A program made the translations under genes and the position numbers. The notes beneath the pieces are model-generated. The model did no database searches and was not told where the DNA came from. It was given only the letters and a program-made list of their open reading frames with translations. A DNA stretch of 64,000 nucleotides from Candidatus Levyibacteriota bacterium (lineage in GTDB: Bacteria > Patescibacteriota > Microgenomatia > Levybacterales > UBA12049), in contig DAIDHK010000006.1 in the NCBI GenBank assembly GCA_027459725.1, positions 1,895 through 65,894 of the forward strand, given 5' to 3'. Shown piece after piece: positions 5,538 through 64,000 of this stretch. Each line of letters starts with the position of its first letter. The first letter of the stretch is position 1.

Positions 5538-5599
5538 ATAATGGTCTGCCTATATTATATCTAACGGTGTTTAGAAGACAAGATGTTTAACTATATCAT

Positions 5600-6890: not shown

Positions 6891-7476
6891 TCATTAAATA
6901 AACTATGGTAAAAATGAAGATCCATACGATATCTAAAAAATGCCAAAAAAGGCTAAGTAACGTTAGTTTGCGTGATAAACTAGAGGTCAATCCTTCCTTC
7001 CAGATTTTGAATAAACAGATTATCATCCAGATCAGACCAGCAGTAATATGTAATCCATGTGTCCCTACCAGAGTGAAATAGGCGGACAGGAAACCACTGC
7101 GCTGCCAACTGTTGCCTTCACTGATAAGTTTACTAAACTCACTCAATTCTAAAATCAAAAAAGTTATACCTAAAATAAAAGTTAAACTAAACCACAAAAT
7201 AACCTGAATTTTGTTTTTCTGTTGCAAAGCCAGAATAGCTAGGCCACAAGTGAAACTGCTGGTTAATAAAATTAAAGTTTCAGATAGTGCAAAAGGTAGG
7301 TTAAACACATTACGATCCATTGGGCCACCGAATGTATTACCTCGCAGTACTGTATAGGTAGCAAAAAGTACTCCAAACATGACCAAGTCGGTCATAAGAT
7401 AAATCCAGAATCCTAGAGTGGTTTTATCATTATTTTCTGTTTCTTTTTTTAAATTTAATGTTGTCACACTGTTCAT
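6880..7476 (-). CDS. cyoC: Quinol oxidase subunit III
   Basis: 198 aa with the 5-TM pattern of haem-copper oxidase subunit III (FFVGTHGLHITAGLIW-like region). Confidence 0.8.
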   Translation of the reverse strand: MNSVTTLNLKKETENNDKTTLGFWIYLMTDLVMFGVLFATYTVLRGNTFGGPMDRNVFNLPFALSETLILLTSSFTCGLAILALQQKNKIQVILWFSLTFILGITFLILELSEFSKLISEGNSWQRSGFLSAYFTLVGTHGLHITAGLIWMIICLFKIWKEGLTSSLSRKLTLLSLFWHFLDIVWIFIFTIVYLMSGI

Positions 7477-53194: not shown

Positions 53195-53250
53195 ATTTGG
53201 TATATATTATATCAGAAATTAGCTTTATTTTTTATAATCTTGGTGCTAGA

Positions 53251-61143: not shown

Positions 61144-62037
61144 ATGAGATTTTTTAATCCGTTTAGGTTACTTCATAGGCTAGATGCTCCAACCGAAAAC
61201 AGGGAAGAGACTAAGCCAATTGTAAAGCCAGTACATAATATTCAACATAAAGAAATGACCCAGGGTTTTTTTGACAAACGTCAAAAATTTATAATCGGTA
61301 TTATCATTTTATCTTTAATTTTTTTATCGATCCAATTTAACATTGGTCAACAAGACATTTTTATAGTTGTTGCATTAGCAATACTTACAAATGTCTTTTT
61401 ATACTGGGCAATGAGACACGATTTAAAAGATAATATGATGTATACAATTTTTATTCTACCTTTTTTTTATAGTTTGGCTTTTGGATTGTTCTATTTACTT
61501 ATTCCGACACGGATTATATTTAGATTAATTTTAACTTTTATTTATGGTCTTGGATTGTATTCTTTATTTCTCAGCCAAAATATCTTTGTAGTAGGAGCAA
61601 TTAGAACTATTCAGCTACTTACTGGTGCAAGGATCGTTTCCTTCATGATAGCTATTTTATGTTTTGTTTTTTTAGTTAACACTGTAATTTCTTTACATTT
61701 TGCTTTACCGATAATTTTAGGTTTACTATTGCTTTGTATTTATCCGTTGACATATCATTCTTTGTGGATTTATGTTTTACAAAAAGCTCCATTTAGATTA
61801 TCTTTATGGAGCGGGGGAGTTACATTGTGTTTATTGGAGATCGCTACGGTTTTATTATTCTGGCCCAGTAGTCCAACTGTATTAGCTCTATATTTAGGAA
61901 GTATATTCTATTTATTCGTTGGACTCTCGCATGTGTGGATTGAGAGAAGGCTATTTAGAAATGTAATGTGGGAATTTAGTTGGATATTGATTGTGGCTTT
62001 TTTATTTTTGTTCTTGTTTACAAGTTGGGGAAATTAA
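61144..62037 (+). CDS. Polytopic membrane protein, function unknown
   Basis: 297 aa; hydrophilic N-terminal ~60 aa, then about 7 TM helices. Confidence 0.4.
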   Translation: MRFFNPFRLLHRLDAPTENREETKPIVKPVHNIQHKEMTQGFFDKRQKFIIGIIILSLIFLSIQFNIGQQDIFIVVALAILTNVFLYWAMRHDLKDNMMYTIFILPFFYSLAFGLFYLLIPTRIIFRLILTFIYGLGLYSLFLSQNIFVVGAIRTIQLLTGARIVSFMIAILCFVFLVNTVISLHFALPIILGLLLLCIYPLTYHSLWIYVLQKAPFRLSLWSGGVTLCLLEIATVLLFWPSSPTVLALYLGSIFYLFVGLSHVWIERRLFRNVMWEFSWILIVAFLFLFLFTSWGN

Positions 62038-62999
62038 AAGTATCGGGTTAGAAATTGAGGCAGGGGAGCAAGAGAGTAAATAAGTCCTATAATAAATATG
62101 ATATATATTGATATAGTATGAAAATAGTTACATTAACTTTTCACGAGTGTGGATAAGTAATTATAGGATTCTTACAAAAGATGTTCAGTTGTGCCTAAAA
62201 ACAGCCTAACGCACTCAGGGTAGTGCATATGTTTGTATACGGGAAATATTACTTAAGTTATCTCCTCTTGGGTAAGACTGCTAATTGAAATGAAAAAAAT
62301 ACGAAAATACTTTTCACGGCTGGGCTTATTTCGCTTTGAGTAGAACTTCTAGAGGAGGGGTCAGTTTAGGCAGCAGTTACTGCTTTAGGAGAGAATAGGA
62401 TATGTTTAACTTCAGAATTATAAATTCTATATTTATCTTCTCTTTTCAACGTATGGATCTTGTATCTCTCACGTCGCACAATAATACTTTTGCGACGCCA
62501 CTCATGGTCATACTACGAGGGGAGGGTCTACTTTTGTGTACATTTCTATGTGCTTTTCCTGATGTAAGATCTAATTGTTAGCTAAAATCATGATTAATTC
62601 TCCACAAATTTCCCTCAATATTTGTTATGTACTTTTTTCGTATGCTTTTTTAGACAGTTTTAAGAGTTTGAGTTTATATATATATCAGGGATTCATATTA
62701 GTTACAGACATTAGATATATTAAAATGTATAAGTAGTCAGCTTTTCAATAAAAACGAGTCCTAGCGCATTCTGGGGGCTTGTTTTTAAGGCCAAATTAAT
62801 ACTAACAATAGTAAGTATAAGCGGTCTAAAGATTAGTCATTATAAGCACATAGTATTAATAAAAACTTTATTGATAGATCCTGGTACATAAGTTCAGTTA
62901 TATTTTTGAAATAAAATTAAATTTACACAATATATCCAAAATTATCAGCAATGATCTATGGCATGGACTTATATTTAGTTTTTTTGAAATATATCTTGG

Positions 63000-63019
63000 C
63001 GTGAAAAGAAATTTTCACG
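63000..63019. promoter_or_regulatory. Perfect palindrome CGTGAAAA-gaaa-TTTTCACG at the 3' end of a convergent intergenic gap
   Basis: Read from the sequence. Related TTTTCACG half-sites occur at ~62140 and ~62312. Confidence 0.3.
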
Positions 63020-63032
63020 GAAAATTTATTAA

Positions 63033-63698
63033 TTATTTTTGTTGTGTGATTTTACCTATTTGACTACCCTTAAAAGTGATCGTCTGATTAGTGTTTGGAT
63101 TTTGTGTGATTATTTTTTTTCCATCACGGCTAATAATACTTAGATATGTCCCCTGCTCTGAAGTTTCTACAACATCAGTACAAACATAACCTTTAACCGT
63201 TTTTAACCCATGATCTAAACCGACATTAAACTCAACCCACATAGCATTACCTTGAGGATTGAATGGATCTTCTCCTGCAACTAATTTGGGATTCTGAACT
63301 TTAAATACATTAGTAGCGTTAATTTGTGTACCATCAATTGTATAAATATCGCCACGATCAATTGTATTAGGTTGATCTCCGGGAACTGGGATATTAGGAC
63401 TCAGTCTAAAGTTTGCATCTGTTGGAATGATATCAATACCCTGGTAGATAGCATTTGGAACTCTATCACCATAGTAGGATGATGCTAGTTTATATGCTCC
63501 AATACCAAGCAACCCAAGGGCTAAGCCTGTATTAATATTTTTAGAGTTTGCTGTATAAAATGTAGTAACAGTTTCTCTTAATCGTCCAGCTTGCGTAGCT
63601 AGCTTAGCCTTAATAGCATCTTTTATCTGGGAAGCTAATGGAGTTCGTACTTCTCCTGAGTAATAATAGACTCCTAATGGTTTTAAATTCTCCTTCAT
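63033..63698 (-). CDS. Hypothetical protein (membrane-anchored, beta-rich)
   Basis: 221 aa, one central hydrophobic segment (GLALGLLGIGAYKLA). No motifs. Confidence 0.4.
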   Translation of the reverse strand: MKENLKPLGVYYYSGEVRTPLASQIKDAIKAKLATQAGRLRETVTTFYTANSKNINTGLALGLLGIGAYKLASSYYGDRVPNAIYQGIDIIPTDANFRLSPNIPVPGDQPNTIDRGDIYTIDGTQINATNVFKVQNPKLVAGEDPFNPQGNAMWVEFNVGLDHGLKTVKGYVCTDVVETSEQGTYLSIISRDGKKIITQNPNTNQTITFKGSQIGKITQQK

Positions 63699-63783
63699 AT
63701 TAATATAGGATTATATATTATGGGATTCTTTTCGTCAAGTTGACCTTGTGCAGTTTAATTGTTTAATATATAAAGTTATATGC

Positions 63784-64000
63784 AAGATAAAACACTGCCG
63801 GAATTAGTCGATGATTATTTAGAATACTTAAAAGTCGAAAAAAACGCTTCCCCGCTTACTATTCGTGATTATATGCATTATTTGAAAACCTTTTCAGATT
63901 GGTTTTCCTCTACCCTATCTCACAAAAAAATAGGCGACCTGGATCTGTTTATTATCAGACGATATCGTGTTTTTTTGAGCTCAAAAGTGGATGAAAATGG
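63784..64000 (+). CDS. Tyrosine recombinase XerC/XerD-like, N-terminal part (runs off window end)
   Basis: LVDDYLEYLKVEKNASPLTIRDYMHYLKTFSDWF...RRYRVFL is the N-terminal SAM-like core-binding domain of phage-integrase-family recombinases. Confidence 0.6.

What the first reader, a model, noticed from the sequence alone, without database searches (positions are those of the whole stretch)
62038..63032. ~1 kb gene-free gap between two convergent genes, containing GC-rich hairpin and perfect palindromes
The membrane-protein gene ends at 62037 and the minus-strand gene ends at 63033. So nearly 1 kb sits between two 3' ends with no ORF of 60 aa or more in any frame. The rest of the window is gene-dense. 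The gap contains a GC-rich 7-bp-stem hairpin (CGTCGCA-N12-TGCGACG at 62472-62497), a perfect palindrome CGTGAAAAgaaaTTTTCACG at 63000-63019 followed by a T-rich tract, and two further TTTTCACG half-sites. This is what an unannotated structured ncRNA, a decayed gene, or a mobile-element boundary would look like. A XerC/D-like recombinase starts about 750 bp further on.
Basis: seen in the sequence. Interest (0 to 1): 0.5.

Follow-up and report, generated by a model that had tools for sequence, protein, structure and literature searches.

The report
Xer recombination (dif-like) site in CPR bacteria
The "GC-rich hairpin" in this gene-free gap is most likely not an RNA but the 28-bp DNA target of the neighbouring Xer recombinase, probably the chromosome-dimer resolution (dif) site of a large group of candidate-phyla-radiation bacteria, and it sits beside a conserved, unexplained array of promoter-like and DnaA-box-like motifs.

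Summary

The hairpin is the centre of a 28-bp element, ACGTCGCACAA-TAATAC-TTTTGCGACGC (62471-62498). It has two 11-bp inverted arms around a 6-bp centre, which is the layout of a dif/Xer core site.
- It is unique in the window.
- It is present in 8 of 8 loci fetched through the flanking protein.
- It occurs in at least 120 metagenome contigs (114 distinct), almost always in the order YebC, DUF5656, site, xer.
- Conservation collapses outside the 28 bp.
- The one variable "stem pair" is a C·A mismatch in 30% of loci, so pairing is not selected.
- The arm sequence recurs at the xer promoter in 62 of 71 loci.
- A phage contig carries an exact copy.

No Rfam family and no conserved RNA fold was found.

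The 400 nt to the left hold strand-specific motifs enriched 50- to 100-fold: TGATATAGT (a promoter type in this genome), TGTGGATAA (a perfect DnaA box), TTTTCACR repeats and AAAATACGAA. Their role is unknown. Whether the site lies at the replication terminus is only hinted at. I rate it a new member of a known kind, of moderate interest.

The parts
62471..62498 (.). 28-bp dif-like Xer core site, ACGTCGCACAA / TAATAC / TTTTGCGACGC. Left arm 62471-62481, central region 62482-62487, right arm 62488-62498.
   Evidence: Sequence read. Unique in the window even with 3 mismatches, where 0 are expected. Conservation across 114 distinct loci is confined to these 28 bp. The arms vary independently of each other. 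Present in 8 of 8 protein-fetched loci.
62109..62117 (+). TGATATAGT, an extended -10 promoter-like element pointing towards the core site. The inferred transcription start is near 62124.
   Evidence: Found in 50 of 73 non-redundant loci, with the reverse complement in only 2. Occurs at 1.23 per kb left of the core against 0.012 per kb elsewhere. The same motif type lies 11 nt before the 5' end of tRNA-Leu and upstream of protein genes in this window.
62086..62093 (+). CCTATAAT motif. Its inverted copy ATTATAGG is at 62160-62167. It is preceded by the purine block CAGGGGAGCAAGAGAG (62061-62076).
   Evidence: Conserved in the 5-way alignment. It recurs in both orientations, in tandem or as the full palindrome CCTATAATTATAGG, in other lineages. 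Enriched 21-fold.
62138..62156 (+). TTTTCACG (62138-62145) followed by TGTGGATAA (62148-62156). The latter is the exact complement of the DnaA-box consensus TTATCCACA.
   Evidence: Positions. TGTGGATAA is in 45 of 73 loci, always in this orientation. It occurs at 0.91 per kb against 0.008 per kb elsewhere, and TTTTCACR at 2.45 against 0.043 per kb.
62292..62318 (+). GAAAAAAATACGAA followed by a second TTTTCACG (62311-62318).
   Evidence: Invariant block in the window and L001-L004. AAAATACGAA occurs 25 times on the plus strand and never on the minus strand left of the core, about 100-fold enriched.
62351..62361 (+). Purine block AGAGGAGGGGT. A second block, GGGGAGGG, lies at 62519-62526, just right of the core.
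   Evidence: Conserved. In other lineages a GGRGAAGTGG block lies about 45 nt right of the core. Role unknown.
62759..62790 (+). Conserved hairpin (TCCTAG-N6-CTGGGG) followed by a T run. It may terminate the rightward transcript, and it is the last block conserved with relatives.
   Evidence: Terminator-like hit. The stem is kept in L001, L003 and L004, with one change on both sides and two on one side. Homology with L001 ends at 62786. Equivalent blocks occur in other lineages.
62787..63032 (.). Non-conserved half of the gap, on the 3' side of the variable minus-strand gene. It contains the palindrome CGTGAAAA-GAAA-TTTTCACG (63000-63019).
   Evidence: No BLAST homology with L001 over 62787-63695. 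MAFFT lines the palindrome up with GTGAAAATAATTTTTCAC in L001. The palindrome alone is not beyond chance.
63033..63698 (-). 221-aa protein of unknown function. It occupies the variable slot between the core site and xer.
   Evidence: No Pfam or NCBIfam family. It is unrelated (E = 0.37) to the 243-aa protein in the same slot of L001. Other genomes carry transaldolase, GH18, trehalase or DUF4230 genes there.
63780..64000 (+). 5' part of the XerC/D-like tyrosine recombinase gene (the window ends inside it). A promoter-like TTGACC-18-TAATAT lies at 63740-63769.
   Evidence: Pfam Phage_int_SAM_1. Promoter scan. The full-length orthologue in L001 scores XerC 254 and XerD 252 bits and keeps the catalytic residues R-K-H-R-H-Y.

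Best explanation
**What it is.** The hairpin is a double-stranded DNA site. It is the 28-bp core recombination site (11-bp arm, 6-bp centre, 11-bp arm) of the XerC/D-like tyrosine recombinase encoded 1.3 kb downstream.

**How it would work (inferred).** Xer protomers bind the two arms, GTCGYACAA and its inverted copy TTTTRCGAC. Two copies of the site on a chromosome dimer synapse, and the strands are cut and exchanged at the edges of the TAATAC centre. This returns the dimer to monomers. It would be the dif site of this Levyibacteria/Microgenomates-type CPR lineage, genetically linked to its recombinase as in the XerS/difSL and XerH/difH systems.

**Autoregulation (inferred).** In most relatives the same arm sequence sits on or next to the xer promoter, which suggests that Xer regulates its own gene.

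**The flanking DNA.** The 400 nt to the left hold a conserved rightward promoter (TGATATAGT), a perfect DnaA box and TTTTCACR repeats. These look like a protein-binding platform or accessory region of unknown role. The right half of the gap is non-conserved spacer beside a slot in which genes turn over.

**Shown versus inferred.** Shown here: the architecture, uniqueness, conservation, synteny, absence of selection for pairing, recurrence of the arm at the xer promoter, an intact recombinase active site, and the phage copy. Inferred: Xer binding, recombination, and the dimer-resolution role.
For: 1. **Architecture.** 11-6-11, with the arms identical as inverted repeats at 9 of 11 positions. 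This matches the definition of dif sites in PMC5357621 and PMC2958812.
2. **Uniqueness.** Single copy in the 64-kb window even at 3 mismatches, and in every 18-31 kb relative locus.
3. **Extreme conservation confined to 28 bp.** At least 120 metagenome stretches and 114 distinct loci. An unconstrained position in the centre is C in 93%, and conservation falls to background 2 nt outside the searched 24-mer.
4. **Unbiased recovery.** The site is present in 8 of 8 loci fetched through the DUF5656 protein rather than through the motif.
5. **Synteny.** The order YebC, DUF5656, site, xer holds even where DUF5656 is only 26-30% identical.
6. **No pairing selection.** The only variable 'pair' is C-G 42, T-A 23, C·A 34 and T·G 15, close to independence. 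This fits two half-sites, not an RNA stem.
7. **Arm at the xer promoter.** In 62 of 71 loci a copy of the arm (GTCGYAnAA, at most 1 mismatch) lies within 220 nt upstream of xer. It is often fused to a TTGACA -35 box, and sometimes forms tandem or palindromic copies.
8. **The recombinase.** It is Xer-family and keeps R-K-H-R-H-Y. It is the only such gene in the window.
9. **Phage copy.** A phage contig (holin, CHAP endolysin, MuB/TniB-like ATPase) carries an exact 28-mer in an intergenic gap. It has no Xer gene and none of the accessory motifs within 11 kb, and about 0.01 matches are expected by chance. Elements that exploit a host Xer carry such mimics (PMC9765430).
10. **Terminus hints.** Gene orientation converges on the site. 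In the two genomes where about 20 kb to the right could be read, cumulative G-C peaks 7.3 and 16.5 kb to the right of it. That is 1-3% of contig length, inside the range published for dif.
Against: - **Terminus not shown.** GC3 skew on the plus strand stays positive on both sides, out to 14 kb each way in the pooled loci. The two local skew maxima coincide with the same gene boundary (FolD/gyrA) and could reflect gene-specific composition. No whole genome could be read.
- **Single copy per genome and single xer per genome could not be checked.**
- **Weak similarity to canonical dif.** 12 of 28 positions match E. coli dif (my own comparison, from memory of the E. coli sequence).
- **Position.** The site stays close to DUF5656 (250-680 nt), while its distance to xer varies from 240 to 5539 nt.
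- **This genome lacks the promoter half-site.** The window's own xer promoter shows no clear copy of the arm.
- **Flanking array.** Chromosomal dif sites are not known to need a flanking DnaA-box and promoter array, so part of the biology is unexplained.
- **No experiment.** Binding and recombination are untested.
Confidence: 0.6

Rival explanations
1. A Xer-type recombination site that does not serve chromosome dimer resolution. It could be a resident attachment or cassette-exchange site, where mobile elements or gene cassettes enter next to xer. This would resemble IMEX attB sites or the pdif modules of Acinetobacter. Alternatively it could be a site used mainly by phages.
For: The slot between the site and xer holds unrelated genes even in close relatives: 221 aa against 243 aa, E = 0.37. 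It varies from 0.24 to 5.5 kb and holds metabolic genes in others. A phage carries an exact copy, and a second viral contig has a variant with its own integrase 3.3 kb away. No skew switch is seen at the site itself.
Against: No second full site flanks the variable genes: the arm motif occurs only once in the window, and only half-sites lie at xer promoters, including in compact loci that carry no cargo. The cargo genes are ordinary metabolic genes. The site and xer are inherited vertically across very divergent genomes. Use as an attachment site and a dif role are not exclusive, since IMEX elements use dif itself.
Confidence: 0.17
2. A palindromic operator, with no recombination. Xer or another regulator binds the arms to control transcription, for example of xer or of the rightward TGATATAGT transcript.
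For: The arm sequence recurs at xer promoters, overlapping the -35 box or the start codon. A conserved promoter points at the site.
Against: The 6-bp centre is as conserved as the arms, with the unconstrained position C in 93%. That is typical of recombination cores and not of operators. The phage copy lies in an unrelated context. The site is up to 5.5 kb from xer.
Confidence: 0.1
3. The gap encodes a structured non-coding RNA of about 670 nt, running from about 62124 to the hairpin and T run at 62790. In this reading the hairpin is one of its helices.
For: A conserved, credible promoter (TGATATAGT) and a conserved terminator-like hairpin bracket the conserved half of the gap. The motifs are strictly strand-specific.
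Against: No Rfam match in the window or in 14 relatives. Folding is no better than shuffles. The consensus structure is -3.6 kcal/mol with covariation 0.08 over 409 columns. The hairpin's variable pair is C·A in 30% of loci. The order of the motifs differs between lineages. A transcript may still exist without a conserved fold.
Confidence: 0.05
4. The conserved left half of the gap is a DnaA-binding replication-control element: an origin, or a DnaA-box cluster of the datA/DARS type. The 28-mer would then be part of it.
For: A perfect DnaA box in fixed orientation occurs in 45 of 73 loci and is more than 100-fold enriched. TTTTCACR direct repeats resemble weak DnaA boxes (my own judgement). AT-rich tandem TGATATAGT repeats are present. 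gyrB and gyrA lie 13-18 kb away in two genomes.
Against: Genes converge on the site rather than diverge, and there is no skew minimum: the plus strand is G-rich for 62 kb to the left. DnaA-box matches with at most 1 mismatch are not enriched in the window. No dnaA or dnaN gene lies nearby. This reading does not explain the link with xer. It could hold for the array alone, alongside a dif role for the 28-mer.
Confidence: 0.07
5. The gap is plain decayed spacer or a pseudogene.
For: The right half (62787-63032) is not conserved with the closest relative.
Against: The left half is as conserved as the flanking coding DNA, about 76% with L001. Its motifs are shared across more than 100 divergent genomes. 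No relative has a gene there.
Confidence: 0.01

Closest known systems
Canonical bacterial dif with XerC/XerD (E. coli, B. subtilis)
   Same: A 28-bp site with 11-bp imperfect inverted arms around a 6-bp centre. It is intergenic, single copy in all sequence seen, and very conserved. The recombinase matches the XerC and XerD models best and has the full catalytic set.
   Different: Only one xer gene was seen, and it scores equally as XerC and XerD, below both curated cut-offs. The two arms are near-identical rather than distinct XerC and XerD arms. Only 12 of 28 positions match E. coli dif (from memory of that sequence). The gene is linked to the site. Terminus location is not shown.
Single-recombinase modules XerS/difSL (streptococci, lactococci) and XerH/difH (Helicobacter, Campylobacter)
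   Same: One recombinase genetically linked to its site, with both arms presumably bound by the same protein. difSL lies immediately upstream of xerS 'as a single module'.
   Different: The protein is not in those clades: XerS model 135 bits against a cut-off of 267, and XerH structure E = 2e-12 against XerD 1e-38. The centre is 6 bp, against 11 bp reported for difSL. The site is 0.24-5.5 kb from xer and stays next to DUF5656, with other genes in between.
Archaeal XerA/dif
   Same: A single XerC/D-like recombinase and a highly conserved 28-bp site with near-perfect arm symmetry and conserved flanking sequences. That site was identified with the same in-silico criteria. The XerA model scores 209 bits, just under its cut-off of 220.
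   Different: This is a bacterial lineage. In Thermococcales dif is not next to xerA.
XerL/dif of Legionellales and its IMEX element LME-1
   Same: A divergent single-recombinase system overlooked by homology searches. A mobile element carries a mimic of the site, and that dif lies tens of kb from the skew inflection.
   Different: XerL is a distinct clade. Here integration of the phage has not been observed; only a copy of the site on a viral contig has.
Plasmid Xer sites with accessory sequences (cer, psi)
   Same: A core site flanked on one side by a few hundred bp of conserved protein-binding DNA (for cer; here).
   Different: The location here is chromosomal. The motifs are a DnaA box, TTTTCACR and a promoter, not ArgR/PepA/ArcA sites. 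No function has been shown.

Membership tests
dif / Xer chromosome-dimer resolution site | Two ~11-bp partially symmetric arms separated by a 6-8 bp central region | tested here: met
   ACGTCGCACAA-TAATAC-TTTTGCGACGC at 62471-62498, with arms identical as inverted repeats at 9 of 11 positions.
dif / Xer chromosome-dimer resolution site | Occurs once per chromosome | tested here: inconclusive
   One copy in the 64-kb window at up to 3 mismatches, and one per locus of 18-31 kb. No complete genome could be read.
dif / Xer chromosome-dimer resolution site | Non-coding and highly conserved among related genomes | tested here: met
   114 distinct loci with conservation confined to the 28 bp. Present in 8 of 8 protein-fetched loci. 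The site is intergenic everywhere; ORFs called across it in public records (L126, L127) differ in strand and length and are not conserved.
dif / Xer chromosome-dimer resolution site | Located in the replication terminus, where strand composition switches sign | tested here: inconclusive
   No GC3-skew switch within 14 kb either side in the pooled loci. Cumulative G-C maxima lie 7.3 kb and 16.5 kb to the right in the two genomes that could be extended, which is 1-3% of contig length. Gene orientation converges on the site. No global skew is available.
dif / Xer chromosome-dimer resolution site | A cognate Xer-family tyrosine recombinase with an intact active site is present | tested here: met
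   XerC 254 bits and XerD 252 bits, both below the equivalog cut-offs. Best PDB match is XerD, 1e-38. R, K, H-x-x-R, H and Y all align with XerD. The N-terminus of the gene lies in the window at 63780.
dif / Xer chromosome-dimer resolution site | Xer binds the arms and recombines two sites (with or without FtsK) | not testable with these tools
   There is indirect support only. The arm sequence recurs at xer promoters in 62 of 71 loci, and a phage carries a copy of the site.
XerS/difSL or XerH/difH family | The recombinase belongs to the XerS or XerH clade | tested here: not met
   XerS model 134.9 bits against a cut-off of 267. XerH structure 5jjv E = 2.4e-12 against XerD 1.3e-38. The system may work like these modules but is not a member of either family.
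Structured non-coding RNA | Conserved secondary structure supported by covariation, or a match to a known family | tested here: not met
   Rfam gave nothing. Fold z-scores are -1.45 and 0.0. Consensus structure is -3.6 kcal/mol with covariation +0.08. The hairpin's variable pair is C·A in 34 of 114 loci.
Intrinsic terminator (reading of the GC-rich hairpin) | A G+C-rich stem directly followed by a run of T | tested here: not met
   The hairpin is followed by CCACTCATGG and the terminator scan does not list it. A separate conserved hairpin with a T run does exist at 62759-62790.
Replication origin / DnaA-box cluster | A cluster of DnaA boxes with an AT-rich unwinding element at a skew minimum where genes diverge | tested here: not met
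   There is one perfect box (62148-62156) and one with 1 mismatch (62598), and the window shows no enrichment. The skew is positive on both sides and genes converge. Conservation of the single box is real and remains unexplained.

The most novel reading that the evidence does not exclude
The conserved array left of the site (rightward promoter, perfect DnaA box, paired TTTTCACR boxes, AAAATACGAA) may be a chromosomal accessory region that makes Xer recombination at this dif-like site depend on DnaA or on transcription. That would couple dimer resolution to the replication cycle. It would be an arrangement known in principle only from plasmid sites such as cer and psi, and never with DnaA. A more extreme version, which the data also do not exclude, is that an initiation-control element and the resolution site are deliberately placed together.
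Probability: 0.1. Interest if true: 0.75.

Novelty: new member of a known kind. Interest (0 to 1): 0.45.

Why it matters
CPR/Patescibacteria make up a large share of bacterial diversity and cannot be grown alone, so how they maintain their chromosomes is known only from gene lists.

- **A landmark for genome work.** A near-invariant 28-bp Xer site would be a practical anchor for finding the terminus and checking assemblies. It would also help link phages and integrative elements to their CPR hosts, as the phage copy found here suggests.
- **A directly testable system.** One purified Xer protein and one 28-mer would be enough to test recombination.
- **An open question.** The flanking DnaA-box and promoter array has no counterpart at known chromosomal dif sites. 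If it is functional, it would point to a new kind of control over dimer resolution.
- **A library gap.** No paper in the held library mentions Patescibacteria together with XerC and dif, and none mentions DUF5656.

Tried and rejected
- **Known RNA families.** I ran Rfam on the gap at E up to 10, on the whole window, and on 14 relatives. It found only tRNAs, and ARAGORN found only tRNA-Leu.
- **RNA structure.** I folded the whole gap on both strands and ran RNAalifold on two segments. Neither gave support.
- **Origin of replication.** DnaA-box matches with at most 1 mismatch are not enriched in the window. The skew is positive on both sides and genes converge on the site.
- **parS.** TTTTCACG resembles half of the parS palindrome (my own knowledge). 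The copies here are direct repeats 19-23 nt apart or outward-facing, never the parS arrangement, so I dropped this idea.
- **KOPS-like polar words.** A search over the 62 kb left of the site gave no convincing skewed G-rich 7- or 8-mer. The test was underpowered.
- **Look-up of the window's own proteins.** Exact look-ups found nothing on record, so the source contig could not be extended.
- **Pairing in the hairpin.** The two both-sided changes seen in L002 at first looked like RNA covariation. The 114-locus table showed that the positions vary independently.
- **Terminator reading of the 63000 palindrome.** The stem is AU-rich with no clean T run on the minus strand, and the palindrome is not beyond chance.
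- **Third genome.** The last look-up (L133) ended at a contig edge in gyrA and added nothing on the skew.
Full report
**1. The observation.**
The window is AT-rich (about 34% G+C) and densely coded. The 297-aa membrane protein ends at 62037. Its database copy and its relatives carry the precomputed Pfam family DUF5656/PF18900, although my own Pfam scan found nothing. A 221-aa minus-strand ORF ends at 63033. Nothing longer than 59 aa lies between them.

The hairpin CGTCGCA-N12-TGCGACG is at 62472-62497, and the palindrome CGTGAAAAGAAATTTTCACG is at 63000-63019. A perfect G+C-rich 7-bp hairpin is rare here: 3 in the window against a mean of 0.4 in shuffles. Perfect 8-bp palindromes are common: 29 against 21.8 expected. 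TTTTCACG is over-represented, with 7 copies where 1.95 are expected, and 4 of the 7 lie in the gap. A XerC/D-like gene starts at 63780.

**2. The gap is conserved, but not as a gene and not as a folded RNA.**
The closest genome found is a Candidatus Levyibacteriota MAG (L001), with 87% amino-acid identity in DUF5656. It has the same ORF-free gap. DNA homology runs from the gene straight through 62038-62498 at about 76%, the same level as the coding flanks. It resumes at 62713-62786 and is then lost until 63696.

Three more relatives (63-65% identity) also have 620-800 nt without a gene after DUF5656. A five-way alignment shows short invariant blocks separated by variable stretches with indels.

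The RNA tests gave nothing:
- Rfam found no family in the gap at E up to 10, in the whole window, or in 14 related loci.
- The gap folds no better than shuffles, with z = -1.45 and 0.0.
- RNAalifold gives -3.6 kcal/mol with no covariation for the segment left of the hairpin. To its right, only one small hairpin (62759-62776) is conserved.

**3. The hairpin is a 28-bp DNA site.**
I scanned the metagenome collection with the conserved 24-mer GTCGYACAATAATANTTTTRCGAC. Across 114 distinct loci, conservation falls to background two bases outside the pattern. This defines a 28-mer, A-Y-GTCGYACAATAATACTTTTRCGAC-R-Y. The one position I had left free in the centre is C in 93% of loci.

Read as DNA, the site is an 11-bp arm, a 6-bp centre and an 11-bp inverted arm: ACGTCGCACAA / TAATAC / TTTTGCGACGC, with 9 of 11 arm positions symmetric. 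That is the textbook layout of a dif/Xer core site.

The only 'base pair' that varies inside the pattern is C-G in 42 loci, T-A in 23, C·A in 34 and T·G in 15. This is close to what independent variation predicts, so pairing is not under selection. The two both-sided changes I first saw in L002 are therefore not RNA covariation.

The 28-mer is unique in the window at up to 3 mismatches. Because the metagenome loci were selected by the motif itself, I also fetched three loci through distant DUF5656 proteins. Each has exactly one site, in the expected place and orientation, and one of them differs at a single 'fixed' base. Together with the window and L001-L004, that is 8 of 8.

**4. Link to the recombinase.**
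Where the contigs are long enough, the order is YebC, DUF5656, site, xer. DUF5656 was found in 93 of 126 loci, and YebC and Xer in 69 each. The order holds even where DUF5656 is only 26-30% identical.

The full-length Xer of L001 scores 254 bits on the XerC model and 252 on XerD, both below the curated cut-offs. It scores 209 on XerA and 135 on XerS. Its best solved relative is E. coli XerD, and it keeps R, K, H-x-x-R, H and Y. No second xer-like gene lies in the window.

In 62 of 71 loci where the xer start is visible, a copy of the arm (GTCGYAnAA, at most 1 mismatch) lies within 220 nt upstream, almost always on the same strand.
- Often it is fused to a TTGACA -35 box about 65-70 nt before the ATG.
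- In other lineages it lies 10-17 nt before the ATG.
- In some loci there are two or three tandem or palindromic copies.

The simplest reading is that the protein that binds the arms of the 28-mer also binds the xer promoter, and that this protein is Xer itself. That is an inference. The window's own xer promoter (TTGACC-18-TAATAT) shows no clear copy.

**5. A phage carries the site.**
The same pattern occurs once in the viral collection, where about 0.01 matches are expected by chance for a pattern of this specificity. That estimate is my own and assumes about 1e11 bases searched.

The contig encodes a holin, a CHAP endolysin and a MuB/TniB-like ATPase. The 28-mer (ACGTCGTACAATAATAGTTTTGCGACGT) sits in a 235-nt intergenic gap. 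No YebC, DUF5656 or Xer gene and none of the accessory motifs lie within the 11 kb held.

Mobile elements that exploit a host Xer carry such mimics, for example LME-1 in Legionella. A relaxed pattern found a second viral contig with a weaker variant and its own tyrosine recombinase 3.3 kb away. I give that one little weight.

**6. Is it at the terminus?**
This is the defining feature I could not settle.
- In the window, the plus strand is G-rich over the 62 kb to the left.
- Pooled over the loci, third-codon-position G-C skew on the plus strand is +0.12 to +0.2 from -14 kb to +14 kb, for genes on either strand. So there is no switch at the site.
- Gene orientation does flip at the site, from about 86% plus on the left to mostly minus on the right apart from xer. 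But the synteny is shared between loci, so they are not independent samples.
- I extended two genomes to about +20 kb. In the 751-kb contig, cumulative G-C peaks 7.3 kb right of the site, and the 2-kb bins fall to -0.12 to -0.15 within a block of genes that are all on the minus strand. In the 565-kb-contig genome the peak is at +16.5 kb.
- Both peaks lie at the FolD/gyrA boundary. They could mark a true strand switch or reflect gene-specific composition.

The distances equal 1-3% of contig length. Published dif sites lie within 0-1.39% (one sigma) and at most 3% of genome length from the shift point. Legionella dif lies 35-79 kb from it. The result is a hint and no more.

**7. The rest of the conserved half of the gap.**
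The 650 nt left of the site carry strictly strand-specific motifs, compared here with the rest of the loci:

| Motif | Per kb left of site | Per kb elsewhere |
|---|---|---|
| TGATATAGT | 1.23 | 0.012 |
| TGTGGATAA | 0.91 | 0.008 |
| TTTTCACR | 2.45 | 0.043 |
| AAAATACGAA | 0.51 | 0.005 |
| CCTATAAT / ATTATAGG (both orientations) | 0.59 | 0.028 |

TGTGGATAA was never found on the other strand left of the site. TTTTCACR usually occurs as a direct pair 19-23 nt apart. The order of the motifs differs between lineages, which argues against one folded RNA and for a set of protein-binding sites.

TGATATAGT is a promoter type in this genome. TGATATAAT lies 11 nt before the 5' end of tRNA-Leu, and TGATATAGT precedes a small minus-strand ORF at 5590. 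A rightward, non-coding transcript from about 62124 is therefore likely, possibly ending at the conserved hairpin and T run at 62759-62790.

TGTGGATAA is the exact complement of the DnaA-box consensus (my own knowledge). An origin is nonetheless unlikely, because there is no skew minimum, genes converge on the site, and the boxes are not enriched in the window. I could not assign a function to the array. Conserved flanks around dif are on record for Thermococcales, and accessory sequences are known for plasmid Xer sites.

**8. The non-conserved half.**
From 62787 to 63695 the window and L001 share no detectable DNA homology. The genes in that slot, 221 aa and 243 aa, are unrelated (E = 0.37). 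Elsewhere the slot holds transaldolase, GH18, trehalase or DUF4230 genes, and the distance from site to xer ranges from 240 to 5539 nt. The palindrome at 63000 aligns with a similar GTGAAAA-N4-TTTTCAC in L001. It may be an inverted pair of the TTTTCACR box or a weak two-way terminator.

**9. Verdict.**
The best explanation, at about 0.6, is a dif-like core site of a single XerC/D-like recombinase, with probable autoregulation of xer and exploitation by a phage. It is a new member of a known kind. It works like the linked XerS/difSL and XerH/difH modules and like XerA/dif, but the protein belongs to none of those clades.

The library holds no paper that mentions Patescibacteria together with XerC and dif, and none that mentions DUF5656. 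The unexplained DnaA-box and promoter array is the part that could turn out to be new.

Noticed in passing
L131:6308-6335 (IMGVR_UViG_3300045051_000818, 41.5 kb): A phage-like contig (holin, CHAP endolysin, MuB/TniB-like ATPase, LPD38 domain protein) carries an exact copy of the 28-bp site in an intergenic gap. No recombinase gene lies within the 11 kb held. It may be a phage of CPR bacteria that uses the host Xer.
   Followed up: partly
L132 (IMGVR_UViG_3300006141_000019), site at about 7222-7249 on the reverse strand: A second viral contig has a weaker variant of the site (ATGTCGCAAAATAATAATTTTTCGACGT). A tyrosine recombinase 28% identical to the CPR Xer lies 3.3 kb away.
   Followed up: partly
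window 63033-63698 (-) and L001:12002-12733 (-): The gene in the slot between the site and xer is unrelated in two genomes whose flanks are about 76% identical in DNA (221 aa against 243 aa, E = 0.37). Neither has a Pfam or NCBIfam family. The slot looks like a hotspot of gene turnover.
   Followed up: partly
window 53206-53214 (-) and 5590-5598 (-): The extended -10 motifs TGATATAAT and TGATATAGT lie 11 nt before the 5' end of tRNA-Leu and about 40 nt before a small unlisted minus-strand ORF (start near 5547). The ORF looks like a short membrane protein. This promoter type seems to be general in this genome.
   Followed up: partly
L009, L015, L019, L025, L047 and others, from about -600 to +400 around the core: Other lineages carry arrays of about 45-nt units, TAGCCTCAAA...TAGAGCGTATTAACGCGCTAAA, and inverted TTGAGGCTAAA / TTTAGCCTCAA pairs around the site, often followed by AAACCCGAA. 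They look like lineage-specific repeats or hairpins of unknown role.
   Followed up: no
about +162 from the core in 17 loci (e.g. L006, L014, L029, L039, L040, L093): TCCCCTACTATRGG lies at a fixed distance right of the site. On the opposite strand it reads CCTATAGT followed by AGGGGAGAG. Those are the same two elements seen left of the site, here pointing back at it. They could be a convergent promoter or a mirrored binding site.
   Followed up: no
L126:11258-11656 (+) and L127:11228-11455 (-): Public gene calls place hypothetical ORFs (132 aa and 75 aa) across or beside the 28-bp site. They differ in strand and length between genomes and are probably spurious.
   Followed up: no
L129 and L130 (right of the site in the 751-kb and 565-kb-contig genomes): FolD, gyrA, a pyrophosphatase gene, gyrB and a RarA-like gene lie 9-20 kb right of the site, all pointing towards it. 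The local G-C skew turns negative at the FolD/gyrA boundary in both genomes. DnaB lies about 10 kb left of the site in L127.
   Followed up: partly
PDB entry 9i5v, chain 14: A 401-residue chain labelled 'Ribosome-associated translation inhibitor RaiA' matches the Xer recombinase over its full length (E = 6e-32). The label in the file looks wrong for that chain.
   Followed up: no
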